Assembly: GCF_024502345.1 (NCBI RefSeq)
Contig: NZ_JALDNN010000001.1
Reading direction: 5' to 3' (one strand)
Source of the DNA: Escherichia coli
Lineage (GTDB): Bacteria; Pseudomonadota; Gammaproteobacteria; Enterobacterales; Enterobacteriaceae
Length of the DNA stretch: 64,000 bases
The notes beneath the pieces were generated by a model. That model worked only from the letters and a program-made list of their open reading frames with translations. It did not search any database and was not told where the DNA came from. Of the stretch, positions 35,811-36,920 are shown piece after piece (position 1 is the first letter of the stretch; every line of letters begins with the position of its first letter). Position numbers and translations under genes: made by a program.

Positions 35811-36920
35811 GAGCAGATTGTCTTTGCCCTGAAGCAGGCTGAGCTGGGTACGCCCGTACCGGAAGTCTGCCGCAAGCTGGGCATCTCCGATGCCACGTTC
35901 TACACCTGGCGCAAAAAGTACGGCGGGATTTCTCCTTCAGAGCTGAAACATATGCGGCAGCTCGAAGAGGAAAACCTTCGCCTGAAGAAGCTGGTTGCCG
36001 ACCTGAGTCTCGACAAGGCCATGCTGCAGGACGTGCTGGCAAAAAAGAGCTGACGCTGGCACGCCTGCGCGAGTGGGTCAGGGACTTACAGACCCGCTAC
36101 GGTGCCAGTGAAAGACAGGTCTGCTTTGCGCTGAAGATCAGCCGCAGTTCGTTCCGGTACCGCTCCGTTGCGGCAGACGACAGCGCACTGCGACTGCGCA
36201 TCAGGGAGATAACCGAAACCCGTGTCCACTATGGCTACCGCAGAGTCCACGTCATGCTGAAACGGGAAGGCTGGCGCGATAATCACAAGCGTGTTTACCG
36301 GCTTTACCGCGAGCAGGGATTATCGCTGCGGCTGAAACGCCCCCGCCGCAATAAATCTGCGCTGAAACGTCAGCCACAGCCGCAGGGGCTGTATCCCAAT
36401 CATGTATGGGGGATGGATTTTGTCTCCGATGCGCTGTTTGACGGTCGCCGGCTTCGCCTGCTGACGGTAATCGATCTCTACACGCGCGAATGTCTGGGGA
36501 TCTGCGTGGGCCAGAACCTGCGCTCTTCAGAAGTGGCGGAGATGCTGGACACTATCGCGTTGAGACGCCCATTACCGCAGCTACTGAAGACAGATAATGG
36601 CTCTGAATTTGCAGGGAAAATGCTGGATAAATGGGTGTACGAACGTGATATCCGGATCGATTTCTCACGGCCAGGCACGCCCACGGATAATGCTACGGTG
36701 GAGTCATTCAACGGCAGGCTGCGGCAGGAGTGCCTGAACGAGAACTGGTTTATGTCCAAGGAGGATGCCCGGTGCAAAATCGAGGTCTGGCGCATACACT
36801 ATAACCAGAGTCGTCCCCATTCTGCACTGGGCTGGATGACCCCGTGCGAATTCGCCGAGAAATCTGCCGGTTGCCAGAATAAGCAACCAACCTGAAGCCG
36901 GTTATTCCTGATTATAGGCT
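35811..36920 (+). mobile_element. IS3-family element remnant, 5' end deleted at the IS26 boundary
   Basis: Partial orfA (ends ...LKKLVADLSLDKAMLQDVLAKKS) then A-AAA-AAG slippery heptamer near 36043..36050 and orfB 36254..36895 with DDE integrase features. Confidence 0.75.

What the first reader, a model, noticed from the sequence alone, without database searches (positions are those of the whole stretch)
35811..36920. IS3-family remnant with a slippery heptamer, 5' end removed at the IS26 boundary
Only the last 80 codons of orfA remain, then A-AAA-AAG (the classic -1 frameshift site of IS3-family elements) and a full orfB. The upstream end is missing exactly where IS26 ends, consistent with an IS26-mediated adjacent deletion. 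The downstream end abuts IS110 copy 1.
Basis: partly seen in the sequence, partly recalled or inferred. Interest (0 to 1): 0.3.

Follow-up and report, generated by a model that had tools for sequence, protein, structure and literature searches.

The report
Doubly truncated IS3-family insertion sequence fossil
This is an ordinary dead copy of an IS3-family jumping gene: IS26 cut off its first 104 bases, a Tn3-type transposon end replaced its last 28, so it has neither terminal repeat and cannot move.

Summary
Window 35811-36915 is 1105 bp of a 1237-bp IS3-family element, probably of the IS407 group. It has 80 of 88 orfA codons, the slippery heptamer A-AAA-AAG at 36041-36047, a stem-loop 7 nt downstream, and a complete -1-frame orfB ending at 36895 with an intact DD(35)E triad.

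The left break falls exactly at the intact terminal repeat of IS26 (35797-35810). It removes 104 bp: the left inverted repeat (IRL), the 5' untranslated region and 8 codons.

- The right end is also truncated. The last 28 bp, including the right inverted repeat (IRR), are replaced at 36916 by a 38-bp Tn3-family terminal repeat.
- IS110 copy 1 (36948-38309) sits inside that repeat, not against the IS3 element.

The right-hand break is old: it is identical in at least 32 complete E. coli chromosomes. The IS26 junction appears in none of 5,426 E. coli genomes, nor in the GTDB or JGI contig scans.

Against a collinear E. coli chromosome, 13.7 kb is missing to the left and is replaced by an IS-rich block ending in IS26. 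IS26 has no 8-bp target duplication. This supports an IS26-mediated deletion, but one-step and two-step routes cannot be told apart.

Ordinary and already annotated; low interest.

The parts
35811..36915 (+). IS3-family (IS407-group-like) remnant: 1105 of 1237 bp, lacking both terminal inverted repeats
   Evidence: It is 100% identical to E. coli chromosomal copies. Homology to intact relatives at 82-91% identity, and to a 99.4% identical Klebsiella plasmid fragment, stops at 36915.
35811..36053 (+). orfA remnant: codons 9-88 plus the TGA stop; the start codon and first 8 codons (MKKSRFTE) are missing
   Evidence: Pfam HTH_Tnp_1 E=5e-18.
36041..36047 (+). Slippery heptamer A-AAA-AAG for the -1 programmed frameshift
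   Evidence: Read in the orfA 0 frame as GCA AAA AAG AGC TGA. It is conserved in 3 of 4 divergent relatives. PGAP annotates a programmed frameshift in the identical copies.
36054..36110 (+). Stem-loop 7 nt after the heptamer; likely frameshift stimulator
   Evidence: Minimum free energy -31.1 kcal/mol with z = -3.3 against shuffles. The outer stem is conserved in relatives but shows no compensatory changes.
36047..36895 (+). orfB in the -1 frame, complete: DDE integrase-type catalytic domain with D...D(35)E intact
   Evidence: Pfam rve, rve_3 and HTH_21. NCBIfam NF033516 at 251 bits. The fusion translates without internal stops.
35072..35810 (-). IS26, tnp26-proximal part, with its intact 14-bp terminal repeat at 35797-35810 forming the left break of the IS3 remnant
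   Evidence: It is 99.6% identical to annotated IS26.
34304..35071 (+). IS1 inserted inside IS26 with an 8-9 bp duplication (GCATTTCG); it cuts Tnp26 after R226
34215..34303 (-). IS26, distal 89 bp with the other terminal repeat (34215-34228); its outer flank is CGATTAGG
36916..36947 (+). First 32 bp of a 38-bp Tn3-family terminal inverted repeat ('IR-a', AGGCTCCGTTTGGGAAACGGAAAATATTGTAC). It forms the right break of the IS3 remnant; its last 6 bp (GTTAAG) are at 38310-38315
   Evidence: The uninterrupted form is in E. coli WP5-S17-ESBL-11. The same repeat, beginning GGGC, lies next to a resolvase gene on pETEC_74.
36948..38309 (-). IS110/IS1111-type element, copy 1 (1362 bp), inserted into IR-a between positions 32 and 33
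   Evidence: It is an insertion relative to L001 and L011. NCBIfam IS110 family RNA-guided transposase, 360 bits.

Best explanation
Window 35811-36915 is a fossil of a 1237-bp IS3-family insertion sequence. It is unnamed in the annotations I could see and probably belongs to the IS407 group.

An intact copy of this element works as follows (mechanism inferred from the family). OrfA is an 88-aa helix-turn-helix protein. A -1 ribosomal slip on A-AAA-AAG, stimulated by the downstream stem-loop, produces the OrfAB DDE transposase. That transposase acts on the terminal repeats TGACCCTGACCC...GGGTCAGGGTCA.

The window's copy lost both ends in two separate events:
1. An old event. A Tn3-family transposon end (38-bp repeat IR-a) came to lie 28 bp inside the right end and removed the IRR. 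This junction is shared, base for base, with at least 32 complete E. coli chromosomes.
2. A recent, lineage-private event. The tnp26-proximal tip of IS26 was joined to orfA codon 9. This removed the IRL, the promoter and untranslated region, the start codon and 8 codons (104 bp), together with about 13.7 kb of upstream island DNA.

The most likely route for the second event is intramolecular replicative transposition of IS26 in cis, that is, an adjacent deletion. That step is inferred, not shown.

The remnant has no terminal repeat, no start codon and no recognisable promoter. It is therefore immobile and almost certainly silent, even though the frameshift site and orfB are intact. IS26 itself was later killed by an IS1 insertion and two missense changes.
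For: Identity:
- Pfam and NCBIfam hits.
- 100% identity to the PGAP 'IS3 family transposase, programmed frameshift'.
- Heptamer and reading frames; stem-loop z = -3.3.
- DD(35)E counted in the translation.

True ends of the element:
- IRL TGACCCTGACCC lies 104 bp upstream of the window's break in L001. Homology of the neighbouring ISEc15-like element stops 1 bp before it.
- The IRR lies 28 bp beyond 36915 in L004 and in L008, which is 99.4% identical.

Right junction:
- IR-a is uninterrupted in L011.
- The same repeat lies beside a resolvase gene on pETEC_74.
- IS4321 and IS5075, which are known to target such repeats (PMC8269217), sit in it in L001 and L007.

Left junction:
- The IS26 repeat is intact at 35797-35810, and IS26 has no 8-bp duplication.
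- Neither IS3 end is present in the window.
- The window is collinear with the L011 chromosome on both sides, with 13.7 kb absent in between.
- The ferritin-like/IS26 module is common elsewhere with other distal flanks.
- The junction is absent from 5,426 E. coli genomes and from two contig collections.
- IS26 deletion in cis leaves a single copy without a target duplication (PMC4471558).

State of IS26: dead copy. No promoter-like site spans the junction.
Against: - No ancestor with the IS26 module upstream of an intact copy was found, so the one-step deletion is not demonstrated.
- The left part of the island is only about 94% identical to the reference. The reference is therefore not the direct ancestor, and the size of the deletion is approximate.
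- IR-a starts AGGC rather than GGGC or GGGG, so the right junction needs a point change or a 1-bp slip as well as an insertion.
- ISfinder was not available, so the name and subgroup of the element are unverified.
Confidence: 0.85

Rival explanations
1. Two-step route. IS26 first inserted into orfA by ordinary transposition or cointegrate formation, making an 8-bp duplication. Later, recombination between that copy and a second, directly oriented IS26 carrying the ferritin-like module removed the intervening DNA, including the IS3 5' end. The recombination could be RecA-dependent or Tnp26 conservative.
For: The end product is identical to what is seen: one IS26, no duplication, one widespread flank and one private flank. 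Related E. coli chromosomes carry many IS26 copies near this island. IS26 hit the same IS3 copy independently in strains N9 and S1. PMC4471558 notes that the two routes are hard to tell apart.
Against: It needs two events rather than one. No genome in 5,426 shows the intermediate, with IS26 at this site and the IS3 5' end retained.
Confidence: 0.25
2. IS26-mediated inversion (intramolecular transposition in trans). Under this reading the IS3 5' end is not deleted. It lies elsewhere in the genome next to a second, inverted IS26, outside the window.
For: IS26 inversions are common (PMC11368168; PMC4471558). In strain AREA_C483 the ferritin-like/IS26 module lies 35 kb away in the opposite orientation.
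Against: The chromosome on both sides of the IS-rich block keeps the same relative order and orientation as in WP5-S17-ESBL-11: lsr-hipBA on the left and the Tn3-type transposon genes on the right. An inversion would break that. The window has no second IS26 and no IS3 5' end within 35 kb upstream or 28 kb downstream.
Confidence: 0.04
3. The element is complete or still functional. Either 35811 is a natural end, or the remnant is expressed from IS26 read-through and makes an active or regulatory N-terminally shortened OrfA/OrfAB.
For: orfB, the heptamer and the stem-loop are intact. An open frame runs from inside IS26 (GTG at 35262) into orfA. IS26 ends carry a TTGCAA hexamer that faces outward (sequence).
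Against: Full copies extend 104 bp further left and 28 bp further right. Neither terminal repeat is in the window. No promoter-like match spans the junction. The intactness is explained by recent common descent, since the remnant is 100% identical across genomes, not by selection.
Confidence: 0.03

Closest known systems
IS3 family, IS407 group (for example IS407 and ISRso16; some database entries name the closest OrfA relatives 'ISRSO16-transposase orfA')
   Same: It has an 88-aa helix-turn-helix OrfA, the A-AAA-AAG -1 frameshift, a DD(35)E OrfB, 5'-TG...CA-3' terminal repeats in intact relatives, a total length of about 1.24 kb, and a 4-bp duplication (TATG) in the one clean insertion examined.
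   Different: The window's copy lacks both terminal repeats and the orfA start. Subgroup assignment rests on my recollection of the ISfinder group traits and one target duplication. PGAP gives no specific IS name to this element or its relatives at 82-91% identity.
IS26-mediated adjacent deletion by intramolecular replicative transposition in cis (He et al. 2015, PMC4471558)
   Same: There is a single IS26 with an intact tip abutting a truncated gene, no 8-bp duplication, and neighbouring DNA missing relative to related genomes.
   Different: Neither the before-state nor the excised circle was observed. IS26 here is now inactivated by IS1 and by two missense changes.
Identical right-truncated IS3 copy in the E. 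coli hipBA-adjacent island (for example NZ_CP062853.1, NZ_AP022107.1; protein WP_369755208.1)
   Same: It is 100% identical over window 35811-36947, including the junction with the Tn3-family repeat.
   Different: Those copies keep the IRL and the whole of orfA. The window's copy has lost 104 bp to IS26. Strains N9 and S1 lost the opposite (3') side to an independent IS26 event.

Membership tests
IS3 family | Two consecutive ORFs, with orfB in the -1 frame overlapping the end of orfA | tested here: met
   The orfA frame ends at 36053. The -1 frame is open from 36047 to 36895 and has no start codon of its own before 36254.
IS3 family | Slippery A-AAA-AAG-type heptamer with a downstream RNA structure | tested here: met
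   Heptamer at 36041-36047. Stem-loop at 36054-36110, -31 kcal/mol, z = -3.3. No covariation support.
IS3 family | OrfA helix-turn-helix domain and OrfB DDE (rve) domain with DD(35)E | tested here: met
   PF01527 E=5e-18, PF00665 E=6e-20, PF13683 E=1e-28. NF033516 at 251 bits against a cut-off of 160. The 35-residue D-to-E spacing was counted in the translation.
IS3 family | Terminal inverted repeats ending 5'-TG...CA-3' | tested here: not met
   Both are absent from the window. They are present in intact relatives as TGACCCTGACCC / GGGTCAGGGTCA. The window therefore holds a remnant, not a complete member.
IS3 family | Target duplication of 3-5 bp | tested here: inconclusive
   A 4-bp TATG duplication flanks the Raoultella plasmid copy. 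Three other full-length copies show none. The feature cannot apply to the window's copy.
IS407 group of IS3 | Match to ISfinder reference elements of that group | not testable with these tools
   ISfinder is not available here. The only leads are length, OrfA size, one 4-bp duplication and a database name, 'ISRSO16 orfA'.
IS26 (IS6 family) | 820 bp, 14-bp terminal repeats GGCACTGTTGCAAA, Tnp26 | tested here: met
   Exactly 820 bp once IS1 is removed. Repeats at 34215 and 35797. Tnp26 differs from WP_001067855.1 at H176Y and R206C.
IS26 adjacent deletion (cis) | Intact IS tip at the break, no 8-bp duplication, intervening DNA missing | tested here: met
IS26 adjacent deletion (cis) | A documented before-state, or the excised circle carrying the second IS26 copy | not testable with these tools
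   No ancestor was found in 5,426 E. coli genomes or in the contig collections.
Tn3-family 38-bp terminal inverted repeat (IR-a) | 38 bp of the form GGGG...ACGGAAAA...TAAG, found at the end of a tnpA/tnpR-bearing element | tested here: inconclusive
   The length, the internal AAACGGAAAA and the terminal ACGTTAAG all fit. The first bases are AGGC here and GGGC on pETEC_74, where the repeat lies beside a resolvase gene. In the window it is a solo repeat followed by only 34 bp before the next repeat.
IS110 family, IS1111 type (copy 1) | DEDD transposase, non-coding region 3' of the gene, site-specific insertion without target duplication | tested here: met
   NF033542 at 360 bits. The non-coding region at 36948-37204 lies downstream of the minus-strand gene. 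Insertion is precise between TAC and GTTAAG when compared with the empty site.

The most novel reading that the evidence does not exclude
The remnant is not inert. Read-through from inside IS26 (an open frame runs from 35262 into orfA) could yield an N-terminally altered OrfA or OrfAB. Such a protein could bind or regulate related full-length copies arriving on Klebsiella or Erwiniaceae plasmids, which would make this an early step toward a domesticated or trans-acting transposase fragment.
Probability: 0.03. Interest if true: 0.25.

Novelty: already known. Interest (0 to 1): 0.08.

Why it matters
It matters little beyond correct annotation. The stretch should be labelled as an IS3-family pseudo-element truncated at both ends, not as a transposase gene or a mobile IS.

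Its two breakpoints are useful lineage markers. One is shared by many E. coli strains, and the other is private to this genome. They help reconstruct how a plasmid-derived, IS-rich block replaced about 13.7 kb of a chromosomal island next to hipBA.

It is also another example of IS26 trimming DNA next to itself.

Tried and rejected
- I first read IS26 as truncated by IS1, because only 739 bp matched. That was wrong. The other 89 bp, with the second terminal repeat, lie on the far side of the IS1, so IS1 is a simple insertion into a complete IS26.
- I tested whether the window arose from an AREA_C483-like arrangement by IS26 inversion. I rejected this because the flanks are collinear with WP5-S17-ESBL-11.
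- I searched for a reciprocal junction (IS3 5' end + GAGCAGAT + IS26) with a synthetic chimeric query. It returned only strains N9 and S1, where IS26 sits 140 bp further in. That is an independent event.
- I searched for the missing 28-bp IRR and the IRL elsewhere in the window. There were no matches.
- I looked for a hybrid promoter at the IS26/IS3 junction and found none.
- I looked for covariation in the frameshift stem-loop and found none; the stems are simply conserved.
- An Rfam scan of 35600-39900 gave no hits.
- An exact look-up of the 369-aa fusion protein found it is not in the collection. The OrfA and OrfB pieces are there, but carry only generic names.
- Scans of genome contigs and metagenome contigs with the junction 35-mer gave no hits.

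Full report
**What is in the sequence.** The + strand reads ...CCGACTATTTGCAACAGTGCC|GAGCAGATTGTC... with the bar between 35810 and 35811. The 14 bases before the bar are the terminal inverted repeat of IS26, found at 34215 on the + strand and at 35797 as its complement. From 35811 a frame of exactly 80 codons runs to a TGA at 36051-36053. It matches the IS3-type OrfA domain, PF01527, at E=5e-18. In that frame the sequence reads GCA AAA AAG AGC TGA, so A-AAA-AAG occupies 36041-36047 in the phase needed for a -1 slip. The -1 frame is open from 36047 to a stop at 36893-36895. It carries HTH_21, rve and rve_3 domains and scores 251 bits on NCBIfam 'IS3 family transposase' against a cut-off of 160. 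The catalytic residues are all present: WGMD, KTDNG, and VESFNG 35 residues further on. The -1 frame has no ATG, GTG or TTG before 36254, as expected for an orfB reached only by frameshifting. A stem-loop begins 7 nt after the heptamer, at -31.1 kcal/mol with z = -3.3. Its outer stem is conserved in four divergent relatives, but no compensatory changes were seen.

**What the element is and where its true ends lie.** The 1110-bp stretch is 100% identical to a locus that PGAP annotates as 'IS3 family transposase, programmed frameshift'. It occurs at 99% identity or more in 32 E. coli records, and 38 genomes cover at least 80% of it. Relatives at 82-91% identity sit on Pantoea, Erwinia, Raoultella, Klebsiella and E. 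coli plasmids.

- In the E. coli chromosomal copies the sequence continues upstream of the window's break. orfA starts 24 nt earlier (MKKSRFTE...) and has 88 codons.
- Aligning five copies with different flanks places the left end at TGACCCTGACCC, 104 bp upstream of the position equivalent to 35811.
- Hundreds of E. coli hits to the neighbouring ISEc15-like element stop exactly 1 bp before that TG, which confirms the boundary.
- On the right, all intact relatives continue after ...CCTGATTAT for 28 more bases to ...ATTCGGGGTCAGGGTCA, the inverted complement of the left end. This includes a 99.4% identical fragment on a K. pneumoniae plasmid.

The complete element is therefore 104 + 1105 + 28 = 1237 bp and has classic TG...CA ends. 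One clean insertion shows a 4-bp TATG duplication. Length, OrfA size and that duplication suggest the IS407 group. This rests on my recollection of the ISfinder group traits and on a database name, 'ISRSO16 orfA'. It has not been checked against ISfinder.

After ...GATTAT at 36915, the window and all the 100% identical E. coli copies do not continue with the IRR. They read AGGCTCCGTTTGGGAAACGGAAAATATTGTAC instead. In E. coli WP5-S17-ESBL-11, which has no IS110-type insertion here, this continues GTTAAG to make a 38-bp unit. That unit is followed after 34 bp by a second unit, GGGGCCCGCTTGGAAAACGGAAAATATCCTACGTTAAG. These are Tn3-family terminal repeats, for three reasons:

- The first recurs on plasmid pETEC_74, beginning GGGC, directly beside a resolvase gene.
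- The second pairs with an inverted partner at 47752-47789, just past a 994-codon Tn3-family transposase gene.
- In other E. coli genomes both units carry IS4321 or IS5075. Those elements are known to target such repeats (PMC8269217, citing Partridge and Hall 2003).

IS110 copy 1 is a 1362-bp insertion at 36948-38309, between TAC and GTTAAG of the first repeat. Copy 2, at 38383-39744, sits at the same position in the second repeat. The IS3 remnant therefore ends at 36915, abuts a Tn3-type repeat rather than IS110, and has lost its IRR. Neither IS3 terminal repeat occurs anywhere in the window.

**The left end: the IS26 event.** IS26 is complete. It is exactly 820 bp once an internal IS1 is removed; IS1 lies at 34304-35071 and is flanked by the duplication GCATTTCG. 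The 8 bp outside the two IS26 tips are CGATTAGG and GAGCAGAT, so there is no target duplication.

- The flank on the far side is a widespread module, found with other distal flanks on many plasmids and chromosomes. It comprises a ferritin-like gene, an IS5-type element, a RelE/ParE pair and a partial IS110.
- The IS26|IS3 junction occurs in none of 5,426 complete E. coli genomes. It is also absent from the GTDB species genomes and the JGI metagenome contigs. The PLSDB search reached its record cap and is not conclusive.
- The window is collinear with the WP5-S17-ESBL-11 chromosome on both sides. The lsr operon, an autotransporter gene, hipBA and an integrase gene match up to 28693. Everything from 35811 onward matches on the right. 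The 13.7 kb between them in the reference is absent. That stretch holds a second integrase gene, an AlbA-family gene, a 4.1-kb ATPase gene, and the IS3 IRL with the orfA start.
- In its place the window has a 7.1-kb IS-rich block. It is bounded by an IS903-like element (28694-29751) on the left and by IS26::IS1 on the right.

This is the pattern described for IS26 intramolecular replicative transposition in cis: one IS copy, no duplication, adjacent DNA gone (PMC4471558). It is equally the end-state of insertion followed by IS26-IS26 recombination, and I could not find an intermediate that would decide between the two. An inversion is unlikely because the orientation of the flanks is preserved. 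Strains N9 and S1 show that IS26 has hit this same IS3 copy independently. There it keeps the IRL plus 244 bp and removes the 3' side.

**Functional state.** The remnant has no terminal repeats, no start codon for orfA and no promoter-like match across the junction. It cannot transpose, even with transposase supplied in trans, and is most likely silent. Its intact orfB and frameshift signals reflect recent common descent, since it is 100% identical among genomes, rather than selection. IS26 beside it is also dead. IS1 cuts Tnp26 after R226, and the copy carries H176Y and R206C. The IS26-IS3 junction therefore most likely predates those lesions (inference).

**Verdict.** This is a correctly spotted but ordinary IS3-family remnant. 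The IS26 boundary and the frameshift anatomy are right. The extent of the loss is 104 bp (8 codons), not most of orfA. A second, older truncation removes the right end. The neighbour on that side is a Tn3-family terminal repeat that was itself later hit by the IS110-type element. Nothing here departs from known behaviour of IS3, IS26, Tn3-family or IS1111-type elements.

Noticed in passing
window 36948-38309 (copy 1), 38383-39744 (copy 2), 29753-30487 (partial copy 3, minus strand); candidate guides at 37122-37129, 38557-38565 and 30304-30311: Each IS110/IS1111-type copy carries a short segment in the non-coding region 3' of its transposase gene. The reverse complement of that segment equals the copy's own left target in the Tn3-type repeat. 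Copies 1 and 3 have GTACAATA against the flank TATTGTAC. Copy 2 has GTAGGATAT against the flank ATATCCTAC. A same-sense CGTTAAG/CGTTAAT lies nearby and matches the right target. Two further copies in E. coli AREA_C483 show the same pairing. This is natural guide-target covariation of the kind published for seekRNA/bridge RNA (PMC11187229). Rfam has no hit.
   Followed up: partly
window 36916-36947 + 38310-38315 and 38351-38382 + 39745-39750; compare L001 7099-7210, L007 6063-11571: Two directly repeated Tn3-family 38-bp terminal repeats lie 34 bp apart. Each is a double landing pad: IS4321 or IS5075 inserts after position 22, and the 1362-bp IS5708-like elements insert after position 32. AREA_C483 has all four sites filled, WP5-S17-ESBL-11 has none filled, and the window has two.
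   Followed up: partly
window 34215-35810: IS26 is interrupted by IS1 (34304-35071, 8-9 bp duplication GCATTTCG). Tnp26 is truncated after R226 and also carries H176Y (next to the catalytic E) and R206C. This is a dead IS26 copy.
   Followed up: yes
window 28694-35810 versus L011 22566-36307: A 7.1-kb IS-rich, plasmid-like block replaces 13.7 kb of a hipBA-adjacent E. coli island. The block holds an IS903-like element, a partial IS110, a RelE/ParE pair, an IS5-type element, a ferritin-like gene and IS26::IS1. The left breakpoint is exactly the IS903 tip and has no matching 9-bp flank, which suggests a second IS-mediated deletion on that side.
   Followed up: partly
L012 (E. coli N9, NZ_CM165877.1) 7037-7370; also E. 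coli S1 NZ_CP010226.1: The same chromosomal IS3 copy is cut by IS26 at a different point. The IRL plus 244 bp are kept and the IS26 IRR abuts them. This is an independent IS26 hit on the same target, not the reciprocal of the window's junction.
   Followed up: yes
window 47752-47789 and 47838-47875: The right-hand Tn3-family repeat (GGGGTCCGCTTGGAAAACGGAAATTATCCCACGCTAAG, complement strand) lies just after the 994-codon transposase gene. It is followed 48 bp later by a Tn1000/gamma-delta-like repeat. The flanks AATTA and AGGGA do not form a 5-bp duplication.
   Followed up: no
window 41897-43231: A 1.3-kb insertion lies in the GlxA-family regulator gene of the Tn3-type transposon, relative to L001 and L011. 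It is presumably another IS and was not examined.
   Followed up: no
L001 5686-5896 (outside the window): In the ancestral arrangement the IS3 element's IRL abuts a fragment of a different IS3-family element, ISEc15-like at 86-92% identity. The element had therefore landed in or beside another IS.
   Followed up: partly
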